Source: a virus (lineage: Duplodnaviria; Heunggongvirae; Uroviricota; Caudoviricetes). Taken from it: a stretch of DNA of 64,000 bases. Shown here one piece after another: positions 10,811-59,836 of this stretch (within the stretch, counting starts at the first letter, position 1; every line of letters begins with the position of its first letter). Below the pieces are notes generated by a model that saw only the letters and a program-made list of their open reading frames with translations, made no database searches and had not been told where the DNA came from. Location: the IMG/VR virus record IMGVR_UViG_2513237141_000003, positions 1-64,000 of that record. The stretch is one strand, 5' to 3'. Position numbers and translations under genes: made by a program.

Positions 10811-11833
10811 TTACTTGACCTTCACTTCCCGCAATGAGCGGAAGCTGTAGGCAGCGCGCTGCTGTTCCTTGACGTTGGTGACCTTGAGCGAGAGCTTGCG
10901 GCCGCCAGCAATCAGCGCGAACGTGGCGGCGCCGATCTTGGCCATGATCTCGGTGGAGATCTCATCGCGGCGCTTCTCGCTTGAGCTGATCACCTCGCCG
11001 AGCTTCTTGCGCTCGTCGAACAGGTCGGGGAGCAGGTTATCGCTCGACAAGTCGATGATGCTGCCGTCGTCGACCGGATAGAGCTTGCGGACCAGGTCGT
11101 GGTCGCGGGTCGGGTCGATTGCAGGTACGCCGCCCGCATCCAACAGGTCCCAGAAGCCCTTGACGGTTTCGAGTATCTTCTGCTCGGCCACGGGGTGGCG
11201 CACGAGCGGGATCATCTTCAGGTCCTCGCTGAAGGTGTCGATCACCCATGCCGCGACGTAGGGGTGGATCACCTGCTTGAACGCAATCGAAGCAAGCATG
11301 GTCTCGGCCAGCGTCTGCAGCTGGTAGCCAAGGGGGACGATGGGGTTCGTCCCCTCGCGGTCGCCGCCGAGCCAGTCAGCCACGAACACCGGCTTCGCCA
11401 CGACCTTGCCCTGGATCAGGATCAGGCCCGGACGCTCCGGATCGATCGCCATGGCGTCGGGGGTCGCGCCAAAGCGCAAGGAAGGCGCGCGCAAGTAGAC
11501 CTTGCCGGCGCGGATTTCCCAGGAGGGGTTTTCTTCCTTGATCGTGGCCCACAACGAGGGCTCGAAGCGGCGACCGCGCCGCAGAACGGGGGTATCGGCC
11601 TTCTGGCCGATCTGGCCGGTTTTATCAGCCCAGACCTCGCGCGGAGACCGGTAACCGACGCCAGCAATCGAAGCGACGTCGGACGCCGTGACGTCCTTCT
11701 GGCGCAGCTTCAGCCAGCCCTCCCGGTCTCTTACGGGATCGACCTTGTGGATCTCGACGTCGCCGAGGGACAGCTCGCGGACGATGCCCATGGCGACATC
11801 GCCGATGGACCGGAACGAATCAACTTCGCTCAA
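10811..11833 (-). CDS. YqaJ-like (lambda Exo-type) recombination exonuclease
   Basis: YqaJ N-terminal motif (VTASDVASIAGVGYRSPREVWADKTG); TTG start 5 nt after the cassette SD. Confidence 0.8.
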   Translation of the reverse strand: MSEVDSFRSIGDVAMGIVRELSLGDVEIHKVDPVRDREGWLKLRQKDVTASDVASIAGVGYRSPREVWADKTGQIGQKADTPVLRRGRRFEPSLWATIKEENPSWEIRAGKVYLRAPSLRFGATPDAMAIDPERPGLILIQGKVVAKPVFVADWLGGDREGTNPIVPLGYQLQTLAETMLASIAFKQVIHPYVAAWVIDTFSEDLKMIPLVRHPVAEQKILETVKGFWDLLDAGGVPAIDPTRDHDLVRKLYPVDDGSIIDLSSDNLLPDLFDERKKLGEVISSSEKRRDEISTEIMAKIGAATFALIAGGRKLSLKVTNVKEQQRAAYSFRSLREVKVK

Positions 11834-11886: not shown

Positions 11887-11964
11887 GGGGATCAGCTTCG
11901 GGCGGGCGAGTGTTCGAGGTGGACGACTGGGGTTTGGTCTCCGTCAGCGACGCAACACTTGCAC

Positions 11965-12039: not shown

Positions 12040-12075
12040 CCTGACGGGGACATCGGGGGACGTCGGGGACATCGA
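12040..12075 (+). repeat. GGGGACRTCG iteron x3, direct
   Basis: ggggacatcgggggacgtcggggacatcg. Confidence 0.7.
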
Positions 12076-12116
12076 CTCGCGCGCATCCCTCAAAGCAAAG
12101 ATTCTATCGGGTATGA

Positions 12117-12146
12117 AAAAAGGCGGCCCTGAAGGCCGCCTATTTA
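12117..12146 (-). terminator. rho-independent terminator downstream of the cI-like gene (A/T tracts on both sides)
   Basis: aaaaaaggcggccctgaaggccgcctattt. Confidence 0.6.
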
Positions 12147-12236
12147 ATTCGATAAATCTCTTTCCAATTACTGAGATCTGTATGTGTCTTAGAGTCTACT
12201 ATCTATTGTTTGTCTAATAGCAAAAGTCGTGCCAGG

Positions 12237-12275
12237 GACGATGTCCCCGCAATGTCCACTTTCAATGTCCCCGTT
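12237..12275 (-). repeat. GGGGACAT-family iteron x3, inverted relative to the 12040 array
   Basis: cgatgtccccgcaatgtccactttcaatgtcccc. Confidence 0.7.
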
Positions 12276-12292: not shown

Positions 12293-12910
12293 CTACTCCC
12301 AGGTGACGGGGGTCGCGAAGTAGGAGCCGATGATATCGCTGACCCAGACTATGCCGACATTTCGGATCGGCTCTATGCCGGCGGGGCCCGTTAGTCGGTA
12401 GCGATGGTCCTGCGTCTCCCTTGAGACCTCCCGCAGGAGGAGGGGGCGGTGGTTGGCACGCACGACCAGCATGTCGGTCCTGCCGTTGTGCTTGAAATCA
12501 GCGTGGACGAGCTCGCGCTGGTAGCTCTTGTCGTACAGGAGGTACTGGCCGAGCGAGGCGCCGGCATCGTCGGTCAGCTCGAGCGCCACGGTGTCGGCTG
12601 AGACCTCGACGCCGGTTGCAATCTTGCCTTTCGGTTCATCGAACATCTCGATCCGCAACCCCTTGCGGACGGCGCCGACTAGCGGCACCACGCCGGCCGT
12701 GAACCCGATCTCGGCGGGCGAGCAGCCGAAAGCCTTGGCAATGCGCTGCGCCCACGCCAGATCGATCGGACGCTGCCCCGTTTCCAGTTTTTGAATCTGT
12801 TGTTGCGAGGTGCCGGCCTTCCCGGCGACCGTTTCGCGTGACCAGCCGCGCTCATTTCGCATCTCAATGAGCCTCTCCGGCGGCGCTCGGTCCTTTCTAC
12901 GGTCCAGCAT
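12293..12910 (-). CDS. CI-like repressor (XRE HTH + C-terminal domain)
   Basis: HTH (LIEMRNERGWSRETVAGKAGTSQQQIQKLETGQR); divergent from the cro-like gene; operator repeats in the shared intergenic region. Confidence 0.7.
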   Translation of the reverse strand: MLDRRKDRAPPERLIEMRNERGWSRETVAGKAGTSQQQIQKLETGQRPIDLAWAQRIAKAFGCSPAEIGFTAGVVPLVGAVRKGLRIEMFDEPKGKIATGVEVSADTVALELTDDAGASLGQYLLYDKSYQRELVHADFKHNGRTDMLVVRANHRPLLLREVSRETQDHRYRLTGPAGIEPIRNVGIVWVSDIIGSYFATPVTWE

Positions 12911-12939
12911 TAATCCTCTCTGCTTTCCAATGCTGAAAA

Positions 12940-13025
12940 AAGTACCAGATTGGTGCAAGTCAGTCATCGAAACCGGATTGGTGAAAATGCCCGCTTGACA
13001 CTTCACCGACTTGGTGCAATTTTGC
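12940..13025. promoter_or_regulatory. cI/cro divergent control region with three TTGGTG(C/A)AA operator half-sites incl. TTCACC-gactt-GGTGCAA; TTGACA -35 for cro
   Basis: gattggtgcaag, gattggtgaaaa, cttgacacttcaccgacttggtgcaatttt. Confidence 0.45.
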
Positions 13026-13061
13026 GTGTCGCTGGCCGCACCCATCACGCAAGACGAATCC

Positions 13062-13313
13062 ATGTTCCTTCAAGACTATCTCTTGAAGACCTACCCCGGT
13101 CTTCGCTCTGGGCAGACCAGCTGGAACCAAGTCGAGATCGATTTCGCCGAAAAGGTTGGGACCAGTCGGCAGAACATCAACCGTTATCGCAAGTTTCAGC
13201 GCCACCCGCGACCGCCAATGGTCGCGCGAATCAGGAAGCTCACCAACGGACTGGTGGCCGCAGACGATCATCTGCCGCCTGAGCAACATCCGAGCAAGTC
13301 GAGATCGATCTGA
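13062..13313 (+). CDS. Cro-like HTH regulator
   Basis: 83 aa; HTH (FAEKVGTSRQNINRYRKF); divergent from the cI-like gene. Confidence 0.5.
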   Translation: MFLQDYLLKTYPGLRSGQTSWNQVEIDFAEKVGTSRQNINRYRKFQRHPRPPMVARIRKLTNGLVAADDHLPPEQHPSKSRSI

Positions 13314-16157: not shown

Positions 16158-16343
16158 ATGCCGAAGGGGATCGAGGCGCGCGAGGCGCGCAGGTCGTTCG
16201 TACGTGTTCCGGTAGCGTCGCGCGTTTCTGAGGATCTTCGGGCGGAAGCAAAGCGCCGCGGTGTCGAATACGACGATCTCGCCGCCGAGATCATCGACAC
16301 CGTTGTCAATCATGGGCTCTACGCCGCTGTGTTGGATCACTGA
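16158..16343 (+). CDS. hypothetical small protein
   Basis: 61 aa; ATGA coupling to the primase gene. Confidence 0.45.
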   Translation: MPKGIEAREARRSFVRVPVASRVSEDLRAEAKRRGVEYDDLAAEIIDTVVNHGLYAAVLDH

Positions 16344-18700
16344 TGCCGGACGATTTGGGCCGCTACATCGAGCCGGTTGCCGAGGCTCTCTTTGGGAAAC
16401 CGACGTCGCGCAAGTCTGACGAGCTGCGCTACGGAAAGAACGGTTCACTCAAGATCAACCTGAAAACCGGCTTCTGGGATGACTGGGAGGCCGGGCAGAG
16501 CGGCGGCGTGCTCGCACTGATCGAGCGCGAGAAGGGGTTAAAGAACGGCGAGGCCATCGACTGGATGCGCTCGACGCTTGGCCTGGACATCGAGGACCGG
16601 CGCCCGCAGCAGCGACAGTCGGCGCCCTCGCGCGCTCCCGATCGCAACCCGCCGCCGCAGGACCCGCCAAGGGACGAACCAAGAGAGCAGCCGAAGGCGC
16701 GCCCCCAGCTCGTCAAGGCCTACGACTATACGAACGAGGCCGGCGATCTCGTCTTTCAGGTCTGCCGCATGGAGCCCAAGAACTTCCTGCAGCGCAGGAA
16801 GCCGCGGCCCGACGATCCCAAGGAGGACATCAAGGGCGGCTGGGTGTGGAAGCGCGACGGCATCACCCAGGTGCCGTACCGCCTGCCGGAGCTGGTCGAG
16901 GCGCTCGCCGATGAGCGGATGATCTTTCTTCCAGAGGGGGAGAAGGATGTCGACAACGTCTGCGCCCTCGGCGTCCCGGCGTCGACCAATGCCGGAGGTG
17001 CCGGCAAATGGCCTGACGAACTCACGCCATACTTCAAGGATGCTGACGTCGTCGTCCTGGCCGACAACGATCCGCAGACGAGAAACTCCAAGACCGGCGA
17101 GCTGCAATGGCATCCTGACGGGCGCCCGAAGTTGCCCGGGCAGGATCATGCCAAGCTGGTCGCCTCCAAGCTCGCAGGTGTTGCCAAGCGGGTTCGCATC
17201 CTCTCGCTGCCGAACCTTCCGGTTAAGGGCGACGCCACCGACTGGATCGAGGCCGGCGGCACCTCGGCTGAACTCTATCGGCTGGCGGAATCGCAGGCGA
17301 TGACGCTTGCGGAATATCAGGTCTATCTCGACCTCACATTCAAACCGAAGGCGTTCATCTCCAAATTCGGCGCGGTGATGTGGGGAGACCCGCGCGGGAA
17401 TCGCAAGCGGTACGAGTACATCATCAAGGGCATGATCCCGCGTCGCGAGACCGTACTGATCTACGGCGCGAGCCAGTCGGGCAAGAGCTTCTTCACCCAT
17501 GACATGGCGATGGCTGTTGCGCGCGGTGGAGACTATCTCGGGCGCAAGGTTAGGCGCGGCATCATCGTCTATTGCGCAGCAGAGGCCGGCGACGGCTTCG
17601 TCGACACTCGTTTCGCAGGCTACGCCACCGGCAAGGGCATCTCCGAAAACGAGGTGCTGCCGTTCTTCTGTCTGACCAAGAAGTTTGATCTGTTCGGCAA
17701 CGAGCAGCAGGCGATCGACCTGATCGCTGAGATCAAGGCGTTGGTTGCCATGTGGAACCAGCGCTTCCCGGACGATCAGCTCGAGCTCGAAGCGGTCGTC
17801 ATCGATACCTTCAACAAGACCACGCCTGGCATGGACGAGATCAACGGCAAGGAAGTTGGTCTCGTGATGTCGCGCCTCGACCGCATCCGCGAGGAGTGCA
17901 ACTGCGGGCTCTGGCTGGTGCACCACATGAACGCCTCCGGCACGGGGCCCCGCGGTCACACCTCGCTGTTCGCCGCATTCGAGACCGCCTTCCGGGTCGG
18001 GAAATACGACTACACGCTGAAGGACGCCCCGCCAAAGATCCGCGACGGGGACAGGATGAGGGAGCGCCGTTTCATCCAGAACACCAAGCAGCGCGAGGGC
18101 GAGGACGGCGAGGTCACCGACTTCTACCTGCGCGGCGTCATATCGAGCTACGACGAGGACAATCAGCCGGTCCCAGGGGCGGTGGTCGAATGGATCGACA
18201 CGCCGGCTTCGCGCGCCGCTGACAAGGCCGTCGAGGAGATCGGCATCGCGCTCACCGACCAGCGCGCCAACGTCTATCGGGCCATCCAGCGGGCCCTGGA
18301 GGAGAACGGCGTGCCGACGCCCCCAAGCCTCGGCCTGCCCAAGTCGATCCAACGCGTGGTCAACAGCCGGTTCATCAGGCCCGCATACCTTAAATATTTC
18401 GCAGCGGAGGACGACTCGGAGGACGCGATCAAGAAGGCGCTGTCACGCTCCAACGATTTCCTCGTCCGCAACGGCATCATTGCGCGCAACAACCCATGGA
18501 TCTGGATCACAGGTAAGCGGATCAAGGGCGAGCAGCGGCGGCCAGAGCCGCCGCCGGAGGAGCCGGCGCCGGGAGATGTCGTCGAGGCGCCAGACGAAAG
18601 CGGCGACGAGATGGATTGGTCGGAGATCGGTGACGATGTCGGCGAGATGCCGCCGCCATCTCCGGCCGTGGAGCCGGAATTTGCGGGAGCGATGGAATGA
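16343..18700 (+). CDS. DNA primase/helicase (TOPRIM + RecA-like AAA_25/D5-type NTPase)
   Basis: TOPRIM EGEKD...DxD region; Walker A GASQSGKS, Walker B VVIDTF; acidic C-terminal tail. Confidence 0.85.
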   Translation: MPDDLGRYIEPVAEALFGKPTSRKSDELRYGKNGSLKINLKTGFWDDWEAGQSGGVLALIEREKGLKNGEAIDWMRSTLGLDIEDRRPQQRQSAPSRAPDRNPPPQDPPRDEPREQPKARPQLVKAYDYTNEAGDLVFQVCRMEPKNFLQRRKPRPDDPKEDIKGGWVWKRDGITQVPYRLPELVEALADERMIFLPEGEKDVDNVCALGVPASTNAGGAGKWPDELTPYFKDADVVVLADNDPQTRNSKTGELQWHPDGRPKLPGQDHAKLVASKLAGVAKRVRILSLPNLPVKGDATDWIEAGGTSAELYRLAESQAMTLAEYQVYLDLTFKPKAFISKFGAVMWGDPRGNRKRYEYIIKGMIPRRETVLIYGASQSGKSFFTHDMAMAVARGGDYLGRKVRRGIIVYCAAEAGDGFVDTRFAGYATGKGISENEVLPFFCLTKKFDLFGNEQQAIDLIAEIKALVAMWNQRFPDDQLELEAVVIDTFNKTTPGMDEINGKEVGLVMSRLDRIREECNCGLWLVHHMNASGTGPRGHTSLFAAFETAFRVGKYDYTLKDAPPKIRDGDRMRERRFIQNTKQREGEDGEVTDFYLRGVISSYDEDNQPVPGAVVEWIDTPASRAADKAVEEIGIALTDQRANVYRAIQRALEENGVPTPPSLGLPKSIQRVVNSRFIRPAYLKYFAAEDDSEDAIKKALSRSNDFLVRNGIIARNNPWIWITGKRIKGEQRRPEPPPEEPAPGDVVEAPDESGDEMDWSEIGDDVGEMPPPSPAVEPEFAGAME

Positions 18701-23581: not shown

Positions 23582-23815
23582 GGGGCCCTGCCAAGGGGCC
23601 ATGGGACCTAGCCAAGGGCCCGGAACCGCCCCTTTTGCAGTGCACAAACCGGGCCCGGATGAGGGGCCCGAAAGCAGGGGAAACCCTGCCATATGGCAGG
23701 GCCCGCAGGCTTGGCAGGGCAGGCAGGGAACCGCTTAGGCGAGGGGCCCGCTACCCGTGACCGGACAAGGGGAACCGGGCCCCGAGGGGCCCGCTTTTAG
23801 GGGCCCGAACTGCCG
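23581..23815. repeat. GGGCCC-rich cluster (about 9 copies of RGGGGCCCG-like motif in about 235 bp) at the convergent block junction
   Basis: counted by eye; expected <0.5 copies by composition. Confidence 0.7.
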
Positions 23816-47271: not shown

Positions 47272-47577
47272 TCAGGCGGCGACGGGGATCAAGCCGAGGG
47301 TGATCGCCCGGAGGATGGCGCGCTCGTTCTCGCGGTTCTGGAAGTTGATGTAGGTCCGGGCGGAGCGGCGGTCGGCGAAGCGCTCGCCGTTGACCCAGAA
47401 GCCGACGGCTGATCCGTCAGTGCGCTCGATCATCCAGATGCCATCGTAGTTGATCGAGGCGGTGACGGCGTTGCGGATCGCGTCGGCTTGGTAAGCCCAG
47501 AGCGTCTGACGAACCTGCGTCTCGTTCTTGGCGGCGACGTTGCGGAGCGAATAGCGGGCATCGGTGTGGCGTTTCAT
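47272..47577 (-). CDS. hypothetical protein
   Basis: cassette upstream. Confidence 0.5.
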   Translation of the reverse strand: MKRHTDARYSLRNVAAKNETQVRQTLWAYQADAIRNAVTASINYDGIWMIERTDGSAVGFWVNGERFADRRSARTYINFQNRENERAILRAITLGLIPVAA

Positions 47578-47580
47578 GGT

Positions 47581-47631
47581 CGGTCTCCTTGGTTGCAGGC
47601 ATGAAAAAGGCCCCGCTGCGAACGGGGCCTA
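47581..47631 (-). promoter_or_regulatory. hairpin-SD cassette
   Basis: aggccccgCTGCGAAcggggcct. Confidence 0.6.
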
Positions 47632-47654
47632 GTTGGAAGGGCGGTGGCAGCAGA

Positions 47655-47843
47655 TCAGGCGCCGGTTTTGATCTCGGTGCCGTTGGCGAAGATCGAGACG
47701 ATCTTATCGCCGGAATGAACGAGAAACACGCCGTTATACCGGCGTGAGTGTTTGGCGGCATCCTCTTTGGCCTGCCGGATCGAGCGGCGCGGATGGGTTT
47801 CGAGTTCGCCATCGCCAGCGAGATGGCTGATTTTGATTTGCAT
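47655..47843 (-). CDS. hypothetical protein (first gene of the leftward block)
   Basis: cassette upstream; adjacent to the 1-kb control region. Confidence 0.5.
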   Translation of the reverse strand: MQIKISHLAGDGELETHPRRSIRQAKEDAAKHSRRYNGVFLVHSGDKIVSIFANGTEIKTGA

Positions 47844-47847
47844 GATC

Positions 47848-47906
47848 GGTCTCCTTGGTTTGAGGCGTAGAACGGTGCGGCGAAACATGCGCCGCACTGC
47901 GCTACG
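47848..47906 (-). promoter_or_regulatory. SD 10-mer + long nested palindrome
   Basis: ggcgtag..gtgcggcgaaacatgcgccgcac..ctacgcc. Confidence 0.45.
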
Positions 47907-48308
47907 CCTAGGGCCCGGTATATGACGGGGCCCTAGGGCATAGTGCGCAAAGCCCGGTTGCCCATTTGCGAAGCGGGGCCGGTTGCTACGAACAGCGCGG
48001 GAAACCACTGCAACGATGCGGAGGCCGATGCTTAATGAAGCGGGGCCAAAATGCGGGTGCAGTACCCGACAAGCCTAGACGGTGCTGTAAGCCTTGGCCC
48101 CATGCTGCGAGCGCAGACGGAGAGGCAAGCCACTATGCTTTGGACACCGGTGCATTGCCTTTTGTTTGAGGAGGCATTGCGCACCCGACCCGAGGCGGGA
48201 CTCTGCAAGGCTAACAGCGACTAGCTTGCTGTTAGGGCCATTCCGAGTAGGGGCGCAGTAGCGCAGGCCGGGCACTGCCAAGAGGCAAGCCCTTGGCAAG
48301 GGAGAGAA

Positions 48309-48360
48309 TGCACCAAGATGGTGAAAAACGGAAGCGAAAGTTTGCACCGCTTTGGTGCAA
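48309..48360. promoter_or_regulatory. two operator-like sites: TGCACCA-aga-TGGTGAAAAA and perfect TTGCACC-gcttt-GGTGCAA
   Basis: within the 1-kb control region between the divergent gene blocks. Confidence 0.45.
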
Positions 48361-48439
48361 TATATAGAGAGTGCCCTATTTTGGCCTAAGCCTTTGAAAT
48401 TGCTAGGTTTTACCCCAAAAACAGGCCCAAAACCGCCCA

Positions 48440-48735
48440 AAGGGGCCCCAAATTGGCCCCACACCCAAGGAATGGGCCCGGCCGGGCCCCGATAGAGCAG
48501 GGGACCCGCTACAGGGGCGGAAAGACCGGCGGCGCTAGGCAAGGCAGGGCCCGGGAAACGGCCCTATTGGGCCCGCGCTAGGGCCCCAGAGCTACCCCAA
48601 AATGGGCCCAAAAACGGGCCCCAAAAGATGAGCTGGCGAGGGGCCCCTGCGCCCAGGTACGCAGGGGTAAACAGGGAACGGCCCGAAACGGGGCCCATAG
48701 GCGGGAAGGCTGATTCGGGGCCCCAAAAGGGCCCG
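48440..48735. repeat. GGGCCC-rich cluster (about 12 copies, often GGGCCCCAAAA units) in the divergent control region
   Basis: e.g. tgggcccaaaaacgggccccaaaag; ttcggggccccaaaagggcccgcaa. Confidence 0.7.
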
Positions 48736-48744
48736 CAACCCCAT

Positions 48745-48985
48745 AGGGGACATTTGGCCCCGTAAGGGGACAACGAGACAGAGCGCGGAACGCCAAGGGG
48801 ACATTCGGGGGACATCGGCCTTTCGGCACCATGTCCCCTTCAACGGCGCCATTAGAGAAATCAATCACTTAAGCCCGTTATCGGAATCCCGACATCGGTC
48901 CCCGGCACCAGCCGTCCCGATGTCCACGTTCCCAGTCGAATGTCCCCATGTCCCCAAAGTGTCCCCTTTCGATGTCCCTTTAATG
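48745..48985. repeat. GGGGACAT iteron field: about 4 forward copies then about 6 inverted copies
   Basis: ggggacattt, ggggacaacg, ggggacattcgggggacatcg | atgtcccc x3, atgtccac, gtgtcccc, atgtccc. Confidence 0.7.
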
Positions 48986-49585
48986 TTCTGGCTGAGGACT
49001 CGCGACGCAGCTAACATCCTGATCCGCATGGCGGATATCGCGCAGACATTGGCGGCGGACGTTCTGGAGGCATCGGGGCTGTCGTGCCTGTATGCCGAGC
49101 CAGGCGCAGGAAGTGTGCGGATCACCATCGGCGGCATCGCTGCGCGCAAGAAACCCGGCACAAGGCTCTGGCTTCGCTCGCAAAAGCAGGCCGAACGGGT
49201 ATTGGCCGAGTTGATGGCCAGTCACCGCGAGGCGCGCAAGAACGCTCGTGGCGGCCTCTTCGTGGCCGCCGAGCCCGAGATGGTCGAGAAGATGCTGCGG
49301 GTGTGCGCCGGCCGCCTCGGGTATGCGATCTCGCCCGATGAGCACCTGGACGTCACGCTGTCCTCGCTTCAGAAGCGGATCGGCAAAGCCATCGACGCCC
49401 TGCAGTCCACCGGTCAGATGAAGAAGCTCAATCGAGAATATGCCGCGCTCCGAAAGGGGACATTGCTCGGGGACATCAAGGGGACATCGGGGACATCGTT
49501 ACCATCGTACTCCGAATGGCTGGTCGATCGGCTCAAGAAGCAGCTTCCGGCCTACACCAATCTGGCGAACTTCACGATTTTGTGA
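48983..49585 (+). CDS. hypothetical protein; its gene is embedded in GGGGACAT iteron arrays
   Basis: start uncertain (48920/48983/49028); four iterons lie inside its 3' coding region. Confidence 0.45.
   Translation: MFWLRTRDAANILIRMADIAQTLAADVLEASGLSCLYAEPGAGSVRITIGGIAARKKPGTRLWLRSQKQAERVLAELMASHREARKNARGGLFVAAEPEMVEKMLRVCAGRLGYAISPDEHLDVTLSSLQKRIGKAIDALQSTGQMKKLNREYAALRKGTLLGDIKGTSGTSLPSYSEWLVDRLKKQLPAYTNLANFTIL
49447..49497 (+). repeat. GGGGACAT x4 direct, inside the coding sequence
   Basis: ggggacattgctcggggacatcaaggggacatcggggacatcg. Confidence 0.7.
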
Positions 49586-49842
49586 TCAAATCTGAAACAC
49601 AAGCAATATCATCAAGTTGATATCGATTTTCGTCGTCGGTCCAAATTCATTGCGGAAAATCAGCATTGATCTCGGGCGGAAAATCGGCTCTACACGCGCC
49701 TGCGCCACGTCGACAAGTGTGTCTTGAAGGGTGAGGCGAGCTCAAGCGAGCCTCAACCCAACTCTCAGACATCTGACAAGACTGGGTGGAGAAGGTCTCT
49801 TAGAGATTCTCCATAGCGGCGCCTTCCTCACAAGCCAAGCGA

Positions 49843-49895
49843 TGTCCCCGACCCGGCAATGTCCCGGGGGCCGGAAGAGGACATGTCCCCCTTGG
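49843..49895 (-). repeat. GGGGACAT-family x3 inverted (incl. GGACATGTCC palindrome)
   Basis: gatgtccccgacccggcaatgtcccggg...gaggacatgtccccc. Confidence 0.6.
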
Positions 49896-50148
49896 CAGTG
49901 GGTGAAACTCTTCAACCGATCAGGGCCTCGCGCGGTGACGCTTGTGTTGGTCTCGCGTCCTGCGACCGCTCGACTAGTCCTGTTCGATAGGGAGGCCCTG
50001 AGCTTTTGCCTCCAAGCTGCGCTCGGGGTCTCCTTTGAAATCTGAACCGGGAATTAATTCCGGGTCAAAACCTTATGGCCGATTCTCAATCGGCAAAAAT
50101 TCCCCAACCCCACATCGTTGATCCCCCAACGTAGTCGGAGCCCCACCG

Positions 50149-50577
50149 ATGACTGACGTCGATTACTCGCGAGGCGGCGACGGCCCGAACCTCGGGCCCG
50201 CGACCGATCCGTTCAATGGCGACCAACCCACGGTGGCCTCGCCGCGCGTCGGCCGCATCGTCTACGAGCCGAGTCACGGCCCCGCGCATGCCGCTCGCGC
50301 CGTTGGCAGCGAGACGCCCAACTTCATCTCGACGGTCGGCGGCCGGCAGCAGGCCGAGCCGGCGCCCGATCCGATGCAGTCGCGCCAGGCCGAGGTCGCC
50401 AAGCTGATCGAGGAGCGACGCTTGCGCGATCAGTTCGCGGTGGCGGCGCTGCCGACAGTGCTTGAGTTCGCGATCGGGGCGGACGTGGCGGCTGAGCGCA
50501 AGCCAGCGATCATTGCGACGACCGCCTACGACATCGCCGACGCCATGCTCGCCGAACGCGCCAAGAGGTCGACGTGA
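50149..50577 (+). CDS. hypothetical protein
   Basis: ORF. Confidence 0.5.
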   Translation: MTDVDYSRGGDGPNLGPATDPFNGDQPTVASPRVGRIVYEPSHGPAHAARAVGSETPNFISTVGGRQQAEPAPDPMQSRQAEVAKLIEERRLRDQFAVAALPTVLEFAIGADVAAERKPAIIATTAYDIADAMLAERAKRST

Positions 50578-56606: not shown

Positions 56607-56682
56607 TCTGGACGTAGCGCAGTTGGTAGCGTACCGCACTTGGAATGCGGGGGTCGTCGGTTCGAGCCCGACCGTCCAGACC
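56607..56682 (+). tRNA. tRNA-Pro (TGG)
   Basis: cloverleaf; acceptor ctggacg/cgtccag; anticodon loop cuUGGaa; CCA encoded. Confidence 0.8.
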
Positions 56683-56684
56683 AA

Positions 56685-56772
56685 TCCGTGAGTGCCGGAG
56701 TGGTCAATCGGGGCGGGCTGTAAACCCGCCGGCTTTCGGGCCTTCGCTAGTTCAAATCTAGCCTCACGGACC
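56685..56772 (+). tRNA. tRNA-Tyr (GTA), long variable arm
   Basis: acceptor ccgtgag/ctcacgg; loop cuGUAaa; CCA. Confidence 0.8.
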
Positions 56773-56775
56773 AAT

Positions 56776-56851
56776 TACCCGCTTGGTCCAGTGGTCTAAG
56801 ACGTCGGACTTTGACTCCGAAGACAGTCGTTCAAATCGACTAGCGGGTGCC
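56776..56851 (+). tRNA. tRNA-Gln (TTG)
   Basis: acceptor acccgct/agcgggt; loop cuUUGac; CCA. Confidence 0.75.
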
Positions 56852-56894
56852 AAGAGATTGACCAGCCGCAGGTTGATCGGCTATCAGGCTGGGC

Positions 56895-57401
56895 ATGACC
56901 CTTGCCAAGGCTTCCCTCGTTGTAGCAGTCCTCATCGCCGCCGCGTCCAGCGCAGCCGGCGAGGGGCAGCCTATTACGGAGGCCATGAAGCCGGTCATGG
57001 CCGCAGCCCGCATCTTTGCGCTCGAAAACCACCTCCACGGCGACATCGCTGTTGCCGATGAGGACGAGGGCCACATCGGCCGCAGTTTCGAGGTCAACCA
57101 CGCCCCGGGCGAAGCCTGCACCTTCACGATGCGGCGCCGCGGCGGGCCAGTGATCGAGACGATCAGCTTCGATCGTCTGTCCGGTGAATATCACGCCTGG
57201 CCGCAGCACGGTTATGCGCGGCTCGCCATTTCAGGCCAGCCTGGCGCTCAGTGCGAGGTCAGCGGCGGCGTCAAGCGCTGCTCGCCCAACCTGGATATGC
57301 TGCTGATGGTCGAAGGCTCGCCGAGCGAGCTCGACCTGGCGCGGCGCGCGCTGGATTACATCTTCGAGAACGTGTGCCGTCCGGCACAACTGCCATTCTG
57401 A
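56895..57401 (+). CDS. secreted hypothetical protein inside the tRNA island
   Basis: signal peptide; 168 aa. Confidence 0.5.
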   Translation: MTLAKASLVVAVLIAAASSAAGEGQPITEAMKPVMAAARIFALENHLHGDIAVADEDEGHIGRSFEVNHAPGEACTFTMRRRGGPVIETISFDRLSGEYHAWPQHGYARLAISGQPGAQCEVSGGVKRCSPNLDMLLMVEGSPSELDLARRALDYIFENVCRPAQLPF

Positions 57402-57493
57402 AAGCTCAAGGTCACACCATGTCGTCGTTTAGTCACTCATCACATATCGCCGGAAGGGTGACGCGGTAACACGACCGCCGCCCTTCCTGTTTG

Positions 57494-57579
57494 CGGAGGG
57501 TGGCGCCCATGGTGGGCAAACAGTCTCGAAAACTGCGCCCCGGTCTCCCGGTGATGGTTCGAATCCTTCACCCTCCGCC
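57494..57579 (+). tRNA. tRNA-Ser (CGA), long variable arm
   Basis: acceptor ggagggt/accctcc, G73, CCA; loop cuCGAaa; coordinates +/-2. Confidence 0.7.
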
Positions 57580-57580
57580 A

Positions 57581-57656
57581 CGCCGAGGTAGCTCAGCTGG
57601 TAGAGCGGCGCGTTGAAAGCGCGCGCGTCGGAGGTTCGAACCCTTCCCTCGGCACC
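57581..57656 (+). tRNA. tRNA-Phe (GAA)
   Basis: acceptor gccgagg/cctcggc; loop uuGAAag; CCA. Confidence 0.8.
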
Positions 57657-57670
57657 AACTCTTCCCAAGG

Positions 57671-57746
57671 TGCCGGCTTAGTTCAATTGGTTAGAACGCT
57701 CGATTGTGGCTCGGGAAATCGCGGTTCGAGCCCGCGGGCTGGTACC
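57671..57746 (+). tRNA. tRNA-His (GTG), alpha-proteobacterial type (no G-1, A73)
   Basis: D/anticodon/T arms canonical; loop uuGUGgc; acceptor has three G-U pairs. Confidence 0.6.
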
Positions 57747-57785
57747 AACTTTCGCGGACTCGAACGGTGTGCTAAGGCGCACGCC

Positions 57786-57977
57786 ATGACCTTCGAGGAT
57801 GAGCTCACCGCACTGCTCATGAAGTATCTCGGTCCAGACGCGCGCCCGCGAGACTGGTACCGGATCGGCGGGGAACTGGAAACCGCGTTGCACTGGGTGG
57901 ACTCGCGGTCGTCGGCTAGGTTTACTCCAGAGGAGTTTGACGCCGATCTTGAAGCCGACGAGGCGGAGAGGGAGTGA
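57786..57977 (+). CDS. hypothetical acidic protein (64 aa) between tRNAs
   Basis: ORF MTFEDELTALL... Confidence 0.4.
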   Translation: MTFEDELTALLMKYLGPDARPRDWYRIGGELETALHWVDSRSSARFTPEEFDADLEADEAERE

Positions 57978-57982
57978 ATTTC

Positions 57983-58056
57983 GACGATGTGGCCGAGTGA
58001 TGAGGCAGACGGCTGCAACCCGTCTCACGTTGGTTCGATTCCATCCATCGTCTCCA
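57983..58056 (+). tRNA. tRNA-Cys (GCA)
   Basis: acceptor gacgatg/catcgtc; loop cuGCAac; CCA. Confidence 0.75.
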
Positions 58057-58254
58057 ATTCCGAGACCTCGGTAACTCCATCCCGCCAGATGATCACTGGC
58101 GCGGCCTGGCTCGAGGTGCGGATGCTCGCAAGGTAGACGGCGTCGCGGCTTGCGGCCTGCGGCGCCCGTGTCCATGGCTTGTCCCGTCCCGCCTTGCGTT
58201 TAGGTCTCTGCGTCGTCCGCTAGCGGCGCTCCGGCTAACGGGAAAAAGTTTCGT

Positions 58255-58330
58255 TGGGTTGTAGCTCAGTCGGTAGAGCAGGCGGCTGTTAACCGCCGCG
58301 TCGCTGGTTCGAATCCAGCCTTCCCAGCCA
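58255..58330 (+). tRNA. tRNA-Asn (GTT) with two U-U mismatches in the acceptor stem
   Basis: D, anticodon (cuGUUaa) and T arms canonical; CCA present; pairs 5-68 and 6-67 mismatched. Confidence 0.55.
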
Positions 58331-58331
58331 A

Positions 58332-58406
58332 GCCGGGGTAGCTCAGCGGTAGAGCAGCGACTTTGTAAGTCGACGGTCGTCGGTTCAAATCCCTCTCTCG
58401 GCACCA
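58332..58406 (+). tRNA. tRNA-Thr (TGT)-like, non-canonical T-stem (possible pseudo-tRNA)
   Basis: acceptor gccgggg/tctcggc (2 G-U); loop uuUGUaa; T-stem has two central mismatches. Confidence 0.45.
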
Positions 58407-58444
58407 ATTTCCTTCCCCATCTTCCCCAACAGACGAGTCCCCAC

Positions 58445-59749
58445 ATGCCTGATATCGGCGAGCGCAAGCTCGCGACGATCCGTCGCGTCTCGAAGATCGA
58501 CCCCATCGAGGGTGCTGACCGCATCGTCAAGGCCACCATCGACGGCTGGGAGCTGGTCACCCAGAAGACCAACTACCAGGTCGGCGATCTCTGCCTCTAC
58601 TTCGAGATCGACAGTTTCTTGCCGGTGCGGCCAGAGTTCGAGTTCCTGCGCGACAAGTGCTTCAAGTCGGTTGCAGGCCTTGGTGACGGCTTCCGCATCA
58701 AGACCATGAAGATGAAGGGCGTGGTGTCGCAGGGGCTTAGCCTGCCGCTGTCGGACTTCTTCGATAAGGAAGATGACGGCCGCTACTTCTACATCGCCCC
58801 GGAGACCAAATGGGAGCGTGAACGCCTCGAACGTCGTGAATGGGTCGAGCCGACCCGGGTCTTCCTTGAGGAGGGCATGGACGTCACCGACTACCTCGGC
58901 GTCAAGAAGTATGAAAAGCCGGCCGCCGGTAATGGCGGCGGGTCGAAGCTTGGCCCGACGCATGCCCGCGGCGGCTTCCCCGACTTCCTGCAAAAGACCG
59001 ATCAGGAGCGCATCCAGAACTGTCTGAGCGGTGTGCTGAAATGGATCTATTACGGAGCACCCGTCGTCACCGAGGTGTTTAATCCCGTAGTCATCGAAAA
59101 CCTGAACCTGGGTCGGGTCGAGAACAGCGCGGAGTCTTACTACTTCAAGTCCGGCGACCAGTGGTTCCACAAGGCTGCGGTCCGCAACGATGATGAGACC
59201 ATCGCCAAGCGCCAGCAGTTCGAAGTGACGCTGAAGCTCGATGGATCGTCGATGACGGTCTATCACAACGACTACAGCTACGGCGTCTGCTCGCGAAACT
59301 TCGACCTCAAGCGGGACGAGGCGTCGCTATTCTGGCAGCAGGCCGCCGATGGGATCATCGCGGCGTTGGTTGTCGTCGGCAAGAACGTGGCGCTCCAAGG
59401 CGAGCTGATGGGCCCCGGCATTCAGGGTAACCGCGAAGGATTCGCCACTAACCAGTTCTTCGCCTTCGACGTCTATGACATCGATCAGTCGAGGTACATG
59501 ACGCCGGATGAGCGGTTCGGCTTCCTGCGCAATCTGCAGGGCATTGGCTGCGGCATCCAGCACGCGCCGGCACTCGCTCATGACTACGTGCTCACCGAGA
59601 CGACAACGGTGAATGATCTGCTCAAGATCGCGGATCGGGCCAGCTTCAACAACCCGATCGCTGAAGGTGTCGTGTTCAAGTCCCTCGTCGCCGGCGGACC
59701 GACCTTCAAGGTGATCAACAACAAGTTCCTGTTGGCTGAGAAGGACTGA
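58445..59749 (+). CDS. ATP-dependent RNA ligase (Rnl-like nucleotidyltransferase) with N-terminal OB-like domain
   Basis: KxDG motif I (VTLKLDGSS); covalent nucleotidyltransferase layout; embedded in the tRNA island. Confidence 0.75.
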   Translation: MPDIGERKLATIRRVSKIDPIEGADRIVKATIDGWELVTQKTNYQVGDLCLYFEIDSFLPVRPEFEFLRDKCFKSVAGLGDGFRIKTMKMKGVVSQGLSLPLSDFFDKEDDGRYFYIAPETKWERERLERREWVEPTRVFLEEGMDVTDYLGVKKYEKPAAGNGGGSKLGPTHARGGFPDFLQKTDQERIQNCLSGVLKWIYYGAPVVTEVFNPVVIENLNLGRVENSAESYYFKSGDQWFHKAAVRNDDETIAKRQQFEVTLKLDGSSMTVYHNDYSYGVCSRNFDLKRDEASLFWQQAADGIIAALVVVGKNVALQGELMGPGIQGNREGFATNQFFAFDVYDIDQSRYMTPDERFGFLRNLQGIGCGIQHAPALAHDYVLTETTTVNDLLKIADRASFNNPIAEGVVFKSLVAGGPTFKVINNKFLLAEKD

Positions 59750-59761
59750 ATACACTTTCAT

Positions 59762-59836
59762 TGCAGGGTGGAGCAGCGGTAGCTCGGCGCGCTCATAACG
59801 CGTAGGTCGCCGGTTCGATCCCGGCCTCTGCAACCA
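59762..59836 (+). tRNA. tRNA-Met/Ile2 (CAT), elongator-type
   Basis: acceptor tgcaggg/ctctgca, with 1-72 paired; loop cuCAUaa; CCA. Confidence 0.75.

What the first reader, a model, noticed from the sequence alone, without database searches (positions are those of the whole stretch)
48745..49895. Second and third GGGGACAT iteron fields bracket and invade gene 48983-49585
About 10 copies at 48745-48985 switch orientation mid-array (forward 48748-48825, inverted 48832-48980) and overlap the start region of ORF 48983-49585. Four perfect direct copies lie inside the 3' coding region of the same gene at 49447-49497, encoding RKGTLLGDIKGTSGTS. Inverted copies lie 350 bp further downstream at 49843-49895. 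They flank an AT-rich segment (49585-49700) with its own short repeats: gcggaaaatc twice, and atatca-n6-tgatat. The gene product is the prime candidate for the iteron-binding protein, acting as an autoregulated initiator or partition protein. Alternatively this is the replication origin or packaging site, with the gene overlapping its own binding sites as in lambda O and ori-lambda.
Basis: partly seen in the sequence, partly recalled or inferred. Interest (0 to 1): 0.7.

Follow-up and report, generated by a model that had tools for sequence, protein, structure and literature searches.

The report
Phage iteron arrays around a novel gene
A Bradyrhizobium prophage carries three clusters of an 8-base repeat, arranged like the origins where some phage and satellite helicases load themselves; one cluster sits inside a gene of unknown function, where it is conserved as DNA rather than as protein.

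Summary
GGGGACAT occurs 18 times against 1.9 expected, almost all in three fields: 12046-12272, 48746-48979, and 49456-49496 with 49842-49890. Each field has forward copies, a low-GC spacer, then inverted copies.

The ORF is a real gene, but it starts at 49028, so the upstream array does not overlap its start. It belongs to a small unannotated family (66 representatives) with a confidently predicted fold that matches no solved structure.

In five related loci the same cassette recurs: inverted copies upstream and forward GGGACA copies in the gene's variable linker. Those copies are read in all three codon phases, so selection acts on the DNA.

The field-2 spacer holds the window's only perfect IHF consensus, conserved in relatives.

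Family members without the linker repeats have no arrays. GGGGACAT arrays do sit directly 3' of primase-helicase genes in about 13 other phage contigs, including homologues of the window's 785-aa primase-helicase (16343-18700).

Best reading, confidence about 0.45: origin-type iterons of the staphylococcal island (SaPI) or phage P4 kind, bound by the primase-helicase rather than by the ORF product. The lambda-O-like reading stays alive at about 0.25. This is a new variant of a known kind.

The parts
12046..12072 (+). Field 1, left arm: three forward iterons (GGGGACAT, GGGGACGT, GGGGACAT) spaced 10 and 9 bp.
   Evidence: The field lies between the YqaJ exonuclease gene (10811-11833, -) and the HTH_3 repressor-like gene (12293-13063, -), inside the replication and recombination module.
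12241..12272 (-). Field 1, right arm: three inverted iterons spaced 11 and 13 bp. They are separated from the left arm by about 165 bp of AT-rich DNA that contains a terminator-like hairpin.
   Evidence: The syntenic position in relatives keeps 4 ATGTCCC copies (L123, 1738-1779) or 2 copies (L121).
16343..18700 (+). 785-aa primase-helicase gene, the proposed iteron-binding, self-loading initiator.
   Evidence: Pfam AAA_25, E = 5.7e-24. PHROG 239 'DNA primase/helicase', E = 2e-39. Homologues L254/L255 carry (A)TGTCCCC arrays directly 3' of the gene.
48746..48815 (+). Field 2, left arm: four forward iterons (48746, 48766, 48797, 48808).
48831..48838 (-). First inverted iteron of field 2, 16 bp after the last forward copy.
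48859..48871 (+). AATCAATCACTTA, the only perfect match to the IHF consensus WATCARNNNNTTR in the 64-kb window. It lies in the 81-bp spacer between the opposed arrays.
   Evidence: 1 match against 0.82 expected for the whole window. The site is conserved in position in L128 (perfect) and in L130 and L127 (1 mismatch each).
48920..48979 (-). Field 2, right arm: five inverted iterons, 49-108 bp upstream of the start codon at 49028.
   Evidence: Five or six inverted copies lie at the same place in L124, L126, L127 and L128; in L130 the array mixes ATGTCCC with ATGTCAC copies.
49028..49585 (+). Gene for a 185-aa basic protein (P0001) of an unannotated family. It has an N-terminal alpha/beta domain, a helical hairpin, a variable linker and a conserved C-terminal helix (P.Y..WL..RL).
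   Evidence: AF2 pLDDT 90.8. No PDB, Pfam or PHROG match. pI 9.7.
49456..49496 (+). Field 3, left arm: four perfect forward iterons inside the linker-coding part of the gene.
   Evidence: Homologues carry 5-7 GGGACA copies at the same place, in codon phases 0, 1 and 2 (peptides GTx; GDx or RDx; xGH).
49560..49650 (.). AT-rich stretch (GC 0.37) straddling the stop codon. It includes the palindrome atatca-N6-tgatat at 49606-49623.
49652..49696 (+). Conserved promoter-like block: A-tract, TTGATC (49666-49671), a 17-nt spacer, then TCTACACG. The two 'gcggaaaatc' copies belong to it.
   Evidence: Alignment A9. The block is conserved in L126, L127, L128, L124, and also in L252, which has no iterons. 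The sigma-70 consensus scan did not call it.
49842..49890 (-). Field 3, right arm: inverted iterons at 49842, 49859 and 49883, plus a forward 1-mismatch copy at 49877 that forms a near-palindrome.
   Evidence: L126 has five inverted copies at the same distance from the stop codon (+263 to +315, against +258 to +299 here). L127, L128 and L130 have none.

Best explanation
The GGGGACAT copies (core GGGACA) are iterons: binding sites for one phage-encoded protein.

They are organised as three origin-like units. Each unit has a forward array and an inverted array facing each other across a low-GC spacer. This is the layout of origins used by self-loading primase-helicases of staphylococcal pathogenicity islands (SaPI) and phage P4.

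I propose that the prophage's own 785-aa primase-helicase (16343-18700) recognises the iterons through its C-terminal region. It would assemble on both arms and open the spacer. In field 2 it would be helped by an IHF-induced bend at 48859-48871.

At least one unit would act as the origin. Field 1 lies next to the replication genes, and field 2 is the most conserved. The other units would be auxiliary cis sites, like crr of P4 or incA of P1.

The gene 49028-49585 is real. On this reading it is a resident of the origin region whose dispensable linker hosts one array, not the binder.

Shown here: the arrays, their non-random placement, their conservation at DNA level, the IHF-consensus match, and the association of such arrays with primase-helicase genes.

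Inferred: origin function, the identity of the binder, and the unwinding mechanism.
For: 1. The arrays are highly non-random and the core motif is depleted elsewhere in the window.

2. All three fields have forward copies, a low-GC spacer, then inverted copies. This matches the SaPI origin as described in PMC9371898: short iterons, an AT-rich centre, at least two iterons on each side pointing in opposite directions, bound by the winged-helix C-terminal domain of a self-loading helicase.

3. In a scan of viral contigs, GGGGACAT arrays lie 0-100 bp 3' of primase or helicase genes in L002/L254, L255, L026, L047, L049, L052, L070, L073, L074, L079, L089, L098 and L114. These cover several unrelated primase-helicase architectures.

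4. L254 and L255 encode a homologue of the window's primase-helicase, 32% identical over the C-terminal part. They carry six (A)TGTCCCC copies right after that gene and have no homologue of the ORF within 10 kb.

5. The in-gene array is kept in all three codon phases across homologues. Origins inside genes behave this way (own knowledge: lambda O, N15 repA, SPP1 gene 38). Operators usually do not.

6. The window's only perfect IHF consensus lies in the field-2 spacer and is conserved in position.

7. Field 1 sits among SSB, YqaJ, RuvC-like and primase-helicase genes.

8. No DnaA boxes lie in or near the fields, which fits a self-loading initiator.

9. Short-form relatives of the ORF have no arrays.
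Against: - In this prophage no array lies next to the primase-helicase gene. The nearest is 4 kb upstream and the others are about 30 kb away.
- The C-terminal region of the primase-helicase has no Pfam or PDB match. Its similarity to the C-termini of other array-linked primase-helicases is weak: hhalign probability 21%. A winged-helix fold was not demonstrated.
- Microcystis phage Mae-JY30 has a 36%-identical primase-helicase and no GGGACAT arrays.
- With 2.9 million viral contigs, several unrelated lineages could share one 8-mer iteron by chance.
- Cumulative GC skew peaks at 49-50 kb. By the usual rule that marks a terminus, not an origin. The peak coincides with the switch in transcription direction, so the signal is confounded.
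- The AT-rich stretch of field 3 contains a conserved promoter-like block that also exists in a relative without iterons. It need not be an unwinding element.
- The tight coupling of the arrays with the long-form ORF in six loci is equally what a lambda-O-like initiator would show.
Confidence: 0.45

Rival explanations
1. The ORF product (P0001) is itself the iteron-binding protein. It would be a small, lambda-O-like or P1-RepA-like initiator and autoregulator. It would bind the inverted array upstream of its own promoter region and the array inside and downstream of its gene. Through its conserved C-terminal helix it would recruit the primase-helicase.
For: - The cassette is conserved in six loci down to 31% protein identity. 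It consists of an inverted array upstream, a forward array in the linker and the gene itself, always with the same GGGACA core.
- Iterons flanking and inside an initiator gene are the classical layout of lambda O/ori and of P1 incC-repA-incA (own knowledge).
- The protein is basic: pI 9.7, with the same median for the family.
- Its N-terminal domain weakly resembles T5orf172/MUG113/GIY-YIG-like and Bro folds, which are annotated as DNA-binding (best E = 1.6e-3, TMq about 0.33).
Against: - Five family members without linker repeats (L125, L129, L251, L252, L253) have no GGGACA arrays and no other obvious arrays around the gene. L252 nevertheless keeps the conserved downstream block.
- Identical arrays occur without this gene in L254 and L255 and in many other phages.
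- None of 40 members hits a Pfam family reproducibly or any PHROG family, and no solved structure matches the fold.
- The structural hint is far below a membership level.
Confidence: 0.25
2. The arrays are transcriptional control sites, not an origin. A phage regulator would coat opposed arrays that flank early promoters and repress or loop them. The promoters concerned are those of the ORF itself, the rightward operon starting near 49690, and the recombination operon at field 1.
For: - All three fields lie in promoter-bearing intergenic regions of early operons.
- Field 3 brackets a conserved promoter-like block.
- The field-2 inverted array lies just upstream of the ORF.
- IHF sites also occur at regulated promoters (own knowledge).
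Against: - A separate, classical operator set exists at these same regions: GCACC-N5-GGTGC palindromes at 11961, 24427, 48310 and 48344. These probably serve the HTH_3 repressor-like protein.
- Operators are rarely kept inside coding sequence in all three frames.
- In other phages the same kind of array sits 3' of primase-helicase genes, where no promoter is needed.
- The sigma-70 scan found no promoter in 47500-50300, though that scan is weak for this host.
Confidence: 0.15
3. The arrays are a packaging (pac) site or a partition centromere. Short repeats flanking an IHF site resemble P1 pac. Repeat arrays around a small gene resemble ParR/parC or omega-type centromeres.
For: - The architecture superficially resembles P1 pac, which has 4 + 3 hexamers around a cleavage region with an IHF site. 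It also resembles R1 parC, which has 5 + 5 repeats around a promoter (own knowledge).
- An IHF-consensus match is present.
Against: - No terminase, portal, ParA or ParM gene was found in the ORFs scanned around the fields.
- The window holds only early, replication and nucleotide-metabolism genes and tRNAs.
- There are three separate fields rather than one unique site.
- One field lies inside the replication module.
Confidence: 0.05

Closest known systems
SaPI origins with Rep / Pri-Rep self-loading helicases (Staphylococcus pathogenicity islands)
   Same: - Short iterons in 6-12 copies.
- An AT-rich centre, with at least two iterons on each side pointing in opposite directions.
- The initiator is a (primase-)helicase, and no DnaA boxes are present.

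The description is taken from PMC9371898. It matches fields 1 to 3.
   Different: - SaPI iterons are 5-6 bp and lie immediately 3' of rep. Here the iterons are 7-8 bp and the arrays lie 4 kb and about 30 kb from the primase-helicase gene.
- The spacers here are 81, about 165 and about 345 bp.
- There are three units, and one arm is inside a coding sequence.
- The helicase here is RecA-type (AAA_25), not SF3.
- Its C-terminal winged helix is not demonstrated.
Phage P4 alpha protein with ori and crr
   Same: A primase-helicase initiator binds an octamer iteron (own knowledge: TGTTCACC) at two separate loci in one genome. One locus is the origin and the other is a required cis site kilobases away. 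The several fields seen here compare with that.
   Different: - There is no sequence relationship.
- P4 alpha is an SF3 helicase with a solved winged-helix DNA-binding domain.
- The distances here are much larger.
- No Cnr-like partner was identified.
Lambda O protein and ori-lambda (also SPP1 G38P/oriL, N15 repA)
   Same: The iterons lie inside a gene, in a segment that encodes an inter-domain linker, with an AT-rich region next to them. The reading frame tolerates the repeats.
   Different: - The ORF has no similarity to O or to any Pfam replication family.
- The iterons are 8-bp asymmetric sites rather than 19-bp palindromes.
- Binding by the gene's own product is unproven.
- Family members without repeats exist.
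Iteron plasmids (P1 incC-repA-incA, F, pSC101, R6K)
   Same: Arrays lie on both sides of a gene. An IHF site sits between elements. The extra arrays may act in control (handcuffing).
   Different: - Plasmid iterons are 17-22 bp and are bound by Rep_3 or winged-helix Rep proteins, with DnaA boxes.
- None of these features was found here.
- tblastn found no homologue of the ORF in 72,556 plasmids.

Membership tests
SaPI/P4-type origin of a self-loading primase-helicase | Multiple short iterons of one sequence | tested here: met
   There are 26 copies at no more than 1 mismatch in three fields. Exact copies number 18 against 1.9 expected.
SaPI/P4-type origin of a self-loading primase-helicase | Iterons on both sides of an AT-rich centre, pointing in opposite directions | tested here: met
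   Field 1 has 3 forward copies, about 165 bp of AT-rich DNA, then 3 inverted copies. Field 2 has 4 forward and 1 inverted copy, an 81-bp spacer (GC about 0.48-0.53) with an IHF site, then 5 inverted copies. Field 3 has 4 forward copies, a 345-bp spacer with a GC 0.37 stretch, then 3 inverted copies.
SaPI/P4-type origin of a self-loading primase-helicase | Origin immediately downstream of the initiator gene | tested here: not met
   No array lies within 4 kb of 16343-18700. The feature is met in the homologous L254/L255 loci and in about 11 other primase-helicase loci.
SaPI/P4-type origin of a self-loading primase-helicase | Initiator carries a C-terminal winged-helix domain that reads the iterons | tested here: inconclusive
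   The C-terminal 100 aa is conserved in relatives (A2). It has no Pfam or PDB sequence match. hhalign against other array-linked C-termini gives only 21% probability.
SaPI/P4-type origin of a self-loading primase-helicase | Specific binding and melting of the origin by the helicase | not testable with these tools
   This needs EMSA, footprinting and permanganate (KMnO4) probing.
Lambda-O-type initiator with the origin inside its own gene | Iterons within the initiator's coding sequence, next to an AT-rich region | tested here: met
   Four copies lie at 49456-49496 in the linker, and the AT-rich stretch is 49560-49650. The arrangement is conserved in five homologous loci.
Lambda-O-type initiator with the origin inside its own gene | Homology to known phage replication initiators (Phage_rep_O, Rep_3, DnaD-like and similar) | tested here: not met
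Lambda-O-type initiator with the origin inside its own gene | The gene product binds the iterons; gene and iterons always travel together | tested here: inconclusive
   All six long-form loci have arrays. Five short-form members have none. Arrays also occur without the gene. Binding itself cannot be tested here.
Iteron-plasmid replicon (Rep_3 / RepA-RepE type) | 17-22-bp iterons, a winged-helix Rep protein, DnaA boxes | tested here: not met
   The repeat is 7-8 bp. No Rep family hit was found. No DnaA box lies within the fields.
ParR/omega-type centromere or P1-type pac site | Adjacent partition ATPase/actin gene, or terminase genes, and a single site per genome | tested here: not met
   None of the neighbouring ORFs scanned hits a partition or packaging family. 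Three fields are present.

The most novel reading that the evidence does not exclude
The ORF family would be a new class of origin-binding initiator with a previously unseen fold. It would keep its own origin iterons inside its linker-coding sequence, in whichever reading frame they happen to fall, and use its conserved C-terminal helix to recruit a separately encoded primase-helicase. This would be a lambda-O-like solution that evolved independently in large Rhizobiales phages. The genome would then carry three such iteron units that communicate over about 36 kb.
Probability: 0.2. Interest if true: 0.65.

Novelty: new variant of a known kind. Interest (0 to 1): 0.45.

Why it matters
If the reading is right, the replication origin(s) and the initiator of a large, unstudied group of Bradyrhizobium and other Rhizobiales temperate phages can be pinpointed from sequence alone.

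It would extend the SaPI/P4 'self-loading helicase plus short opposed iterons' design to a RecA-type primase-helicase whose origins lie far from its gene.

It also gives a clean natural example of a DNA signal held inside a protein-coding linker in all three reading frames.

Finally, it flags a 66-member protein family that has a confident predicted fold but no annotation and no structural relative. Either candidate binder can be tested with simple binding assays.

Tried and rejected
- Nucleotide searches of the region and the window against sequenced phages and plasmids found nothing useful.
- tblastn of the ORF against phages and plasmids found no match.
- Pattern-based searches for ORF relatives failed twice in genome contigs, once in metagenome contigs, and at first in viral contigs. 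DNA of the closest homologue, P0002, was not retrievable.
- The profile search with A4 in the word-indexed database returned only 6 proteins.
- A search with the 98-aa C-terminal domain of the primase-helicase returned nothing, so that search was wasted.
- A literature search for the octamer together with 'iteron' found 0 papers. The octamer alone returns only primer sequences.
- The first AF2 run, with 2 sequences, was too poor to use.
- Fold searches of the good model against PDB found nothing significant. The afdb50 library was unavailable.
- Rfam found only tRNAs.
- DnaA boxes are absent from the fields.
- Mae-JY30, the only sequenced phage with a near full-length homologue of the primase-helicase, has no GGGACAT arrays.
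- I first considered that one conserved DNA-binding module or a host factor explains the same octamer next to five unrelated primase-helicase architectures. I now think this is largely sampling from a very large collection. A rough estimate is several chance coincidences per 8-mer, and the control octamer also forms arrays.
- Partition and pac readings were rejected for lack of partner genes.
Full report
**What the window is**

The ORF in the finding is 100% identical to a hypothetical protein of Bradyrhizobium sp. Tv2a-2, carried on a 380-kb contig. The window contains only phage-type early, replication and nucleotide-metabolism genes:
- SSB, a YqaJ exonuclease, an HTH_3 repressor-like protein and a RuvC-like resolvase;
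- a 785-aa primase-helicase, a DHH phosphoesterase, a nucleotide kinase and thymidylate synthase;
- RusA, an AAA ATPase, a DUF3560 methyltransferase and an RNA ligase;
- nine tRNA genes.

Relatives are 105-125-kb viral contigs. This is a large prophage. Genes from about 24 to 48 kb run leftward and genes from 50.1 kb onward run rightward. The finding therefore sits in a roughly 2-kb, mostly non-coding divergence region.

**Observation**

Exact GGGGACAT occurs 18 times against 1.9 expected, and 0 of 100 shuffles reach that number. With one mismatch allowed, the copies fall into three fields.
- Field 1: three forward copies at 12046-12072, about 165 bp of AT-rich DNA with a hairpin, then three inverted copies at 12241-12272.
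- Field 2: four forward copies at 48746-48815, one inverted copy at 48831, an 81-bp spacer, then five inverted copies at 48920-48979.
- Field 3: four perfect forward copies at 49456-49496 inside the ORF, a spacer that includes a GC 0.37 stretch at 49560-49650, then inverted copies at 49842-49890.

The 6-bp core GGGACA is not enriched overall (36 against 44 +/- 6), so outside the fields it is depleted. This is expected when stray sites are harmful.

One correction applies. The NCBI model and the alignment with homologues both start at ATG 49028. The upstream array precedes the start codon and does not overlap it.

**The gene is real and belongs to an unknown family**

An exhaustive profile search found 66 cluster representatives at E < 1e-3 among 1.84 billion, 43 of them below 1e-10. 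The alignment (A4) shows four parts:
- a conserved N-terminal domain of about 145 residues;
- a variable linker;
- a conserved C-terminal helix (P.Y..WL..RL);
- in some members, an extra insert.

With this alignment AlphaFold gives pLDDT 90.8 and pTM 0.80. The model is an alpha/beta domain followed by a helical hairpin and a terminal helix.

No Pfam family is hit reproducibly and no PHROG family is hit by any of 40 members. tblastn finds no homologue in 50,697 sequenced phages or 72,556 plasmids. Pattern-based scans of 185,579 species-representative genomes also found none. The protein is basic, with pI 9.7.

**The cassette is conserved and the in-gene array is selected as DNA**

I recovered DNA for five further long-form loci: L124, L126, L127, L128 and L130.
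- L128 lies on the same 125-kb contig as a 68%-identical primase-helicase and has the same roughly 30-kb spacing.
- L130 is colinear with window positions 30-63 kb.

All five carry inverted copies 40-120 bp upstream of the start codon. There are five or six (A)TGTCCC copies in L124, L126, L127 and L128. In L130 the array mixes ATGTCCC with ATGTCAC. All five also carry five to seven forward GGGACA copies in the linker.

Across the six loci the linker copies occupy codon phases 0, 1 and 2, giving peptides GTx, then GDx or RDx, then xGH. The DNA motif is constant while the peptide changes, so selection acts on the DNA. L126 also has five inverted copies at the same distance downstream of the stop codon as the window. 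L127, L128 and L130 have none.

That test is passed.

**An IHF-consensus match in the field-2 spacer**

The only perfect match to WATCARNNNNTTR in the 64-kb window is AATCAATCACTTA at 48859-48871. It lies in the 81-bp spacer between the opposed arrays of field 2. The whole window is expected to hold 0.82 matches, so by my arithmetic about 0.001 would fall in this spacer. The site aligns with a perfect match in L128 and with one-mismatch matches in L130 and L127. A sharp bend there would bring the two arms side by side.

**What the AT-rich stretch of field 3 contains**

The sequence after the stop codon aligns among relatives into a promoter-like block: an A-tract, TTGAAA or TTGATC, 17-19 nt, then TACACACGCGC. 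A conserved hairpin region follows. The two 'gcggaaaatc' copies are part of this block.

The block is also present in L252, which has a short-form gene and no iterons. It is therefore independent of the arrays. A simple sigma-70 scan does not call it.

**Who binds?**

Two lines of co-occurrence evidence point away from the ORF product.

First, five family members without linker repeats (L125, L129, L251, L252, L253) have no GGGACA arrays and no other evident arrays beside the gene.

Second, a scan of viral contigs for tandem GGGGACAT returned many loci with true arrays. In L002/L254, L255, L026, L047, L049, L052, L070, L073, L074, L079, L089, L098 and L114 the array begins 0-100 bp after the stop codon of a primase or helicase gene. 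These genes have several unrelated architectures: Toprim + AAA_25, Prim-Pol + DUF3987, and PriCT_2 + DUF5906. In L014 and L010 the arrays lie near DnaG-like primase and helicase genes. None of these loci encodes a relative of the ORF near the array.

Most relevant are L254 and L255. They are two 66-kb phages whose primase-helicase is homologous to the window's, at 32% identity over the C-terminal part. They have six (A)TGTCCCC copies directly after the gene, a second cluster 1.8 kb further on, and no ORF homologue within 10 kb.

This is the published layout of SaPI origins. There the iterons lie immediately downstream of rep. They are split by an AT-rich centre, with opposite orientation on the two sides. 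They are read by the winged-helix C-terminal domain of a self-loading helicase (PMC9371898). No DnaA box lies in or near the fields.

**Limits of that argument**

- In the window itself the arrays are not next to the primase-helicase gene.
- The C-terminal region of the protein is conserved among relatives. It has no Pfam or PDB match. It resembles the C-termini of the other array-linked proteins only weakly, with hhalign probability 21%.
- Mae-JY30 has a 36%-identical primase-helicase and no such arrays.
- In a collection of 2.9 million contigs, several unrelated lineages may share an 8-mer iteron by chance. A control octamer also produced arrays, though fewer: 4 of 120 loci against 21 of 120, with both scans truncated.
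- Cumulative GC skew peaks at 49-50 kb. That conventionally marks a terminus, but it coincides with the switch of transcription direction.

**Verdict on mechanism**

The best-supported reading is that the arrays are origin-type iterons of the phage's replication system. They form three opposed-array units. At least one would be the origin: field 1 sits inside the replication module and field 2 is the most conserved. The others would be auxiliary cis sites, as with P4 ori and crr. The primase-helicase is the most likely binder, with confidence about 0.45.

The lambda-O-like reading, in which the ORF product is the initiator and autoregulator, remains a serious rival (about 0.25) because of the tight cassette. 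A purely transcriptional role is less likely (about 0.15). A separate palindromic operator set, GCACC-N5-GGTGC, already marks these regions, and the in-gene array is kept in all frames. Packaging or partition roles lack partner genes (about 0.05).

**Comparison and novelty**

By architecture the locus works like SaPI or P4 origins. It fails one defining feature, position next to the initiator gene, and another, the winged-helix reader, is untested. I therefore do not file it as a member.

It resembles lambda O/ori in having iterons in a linker-coding segment, but the ORF has no homology to known initiators.

I rate it a new variant of a known kind. It contains a genuinely uncharacterised protein family. 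The in-gene iterons kept in three reading frames are something I have not seen described for origin iterons. Interest is 0.45.

Noticed in passing
window 48443-48734 and 23583-23806: Two dense fields of the palindrome GGGCCC hold 12 and 9 copies. The window has 41 copies against 28.6 expected, and no shuffle reaches 41. One field lies immediately left of iteron field 2. The other lies at the convergent junction at the far end of the 25-kb leftward operon, followed by an AT-rich stretch and a hairpin. Together they bracket that operon. At the first position, relatives carry a different G-rich repeat: GGGGCAT in L126 and GGGGCAG in L127 and L128.
   Followed up: partly
window 11961, 12942, 13003, 14148, 24427, 48310, 48344: Palindromes GCACC-N5-GGTGC, allowing one mismatch, cluster at early intergenic regions (11 against 4.1 expected). 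They also occur in L128, L130 and L252. They are probably operators of the HTH_3 repressor-like protein encoded at 12293-13063.
   Followed up: partly
window 49700-50148: The leader between the promoter-like block and the gene at 50149 is conserved in blocks among relatives. Examples are a hairpin around GAGCTAGGGCGATAGCCC in the relatives, GGTCTCGCGTC at 49949-49959, and GTCAAAACC at 50065-50073. Rfam has no match. It could be a structured 5' UTR or a small RNA.
   Followed up: no
window 50050-50061: A perfect 12-bp palindrome, GGAATTAATTCC, lies about 90 bp upstream of the first rightward gene.
   Followed up: no
window 56608-59833: A cluster of nine tRNA genes is interleaved with small ORFs, next to an RNA ligase gene (58445-59749).
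   Followed up: no
L125, L251, L252 and one JGI contig for which no DNA could be retrieved: Short-form members of the ORF family repeatedly lie a few hundred bp downstream of a small serine recombinase (Resolvase) gene. The elements look like small integrative or mobilisable elements, with NikA-like, integrase or portal genes nearby.
   Followed up: partly
L026 2022-2035 and 2163-2176; L073 4388-4401 and 4529-4542; L109 4870-4883 and 5071-5084: In other phages the two half-sites are fused into a perfect 14-bp palindrome, GGGGACATGTCCCC. The window has the near-palindrome GAGGACATGTCCCC at 49877-49890. This suggests the reader protein can also bind head-to-head as a dimer.
   Followed up: no
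whole window (cumulative GC skew): Cumulative GC skew rises from about 14 kb to a maximum at 49-50 kb and then falls. Coding strands on both sides of 49 kb are C-rich, which is the opposite of the usual coding-strand bias.
   Followed up: no
L275 1996-2331: An unrelated 46-kb viral contig has 11 copies of a longer iteron, GGTAGGGACAG, in both orientations. The array lies about 5 kb from an SF3-type helicase gene. This is another use of the GGGACA core.
   Followed up: no
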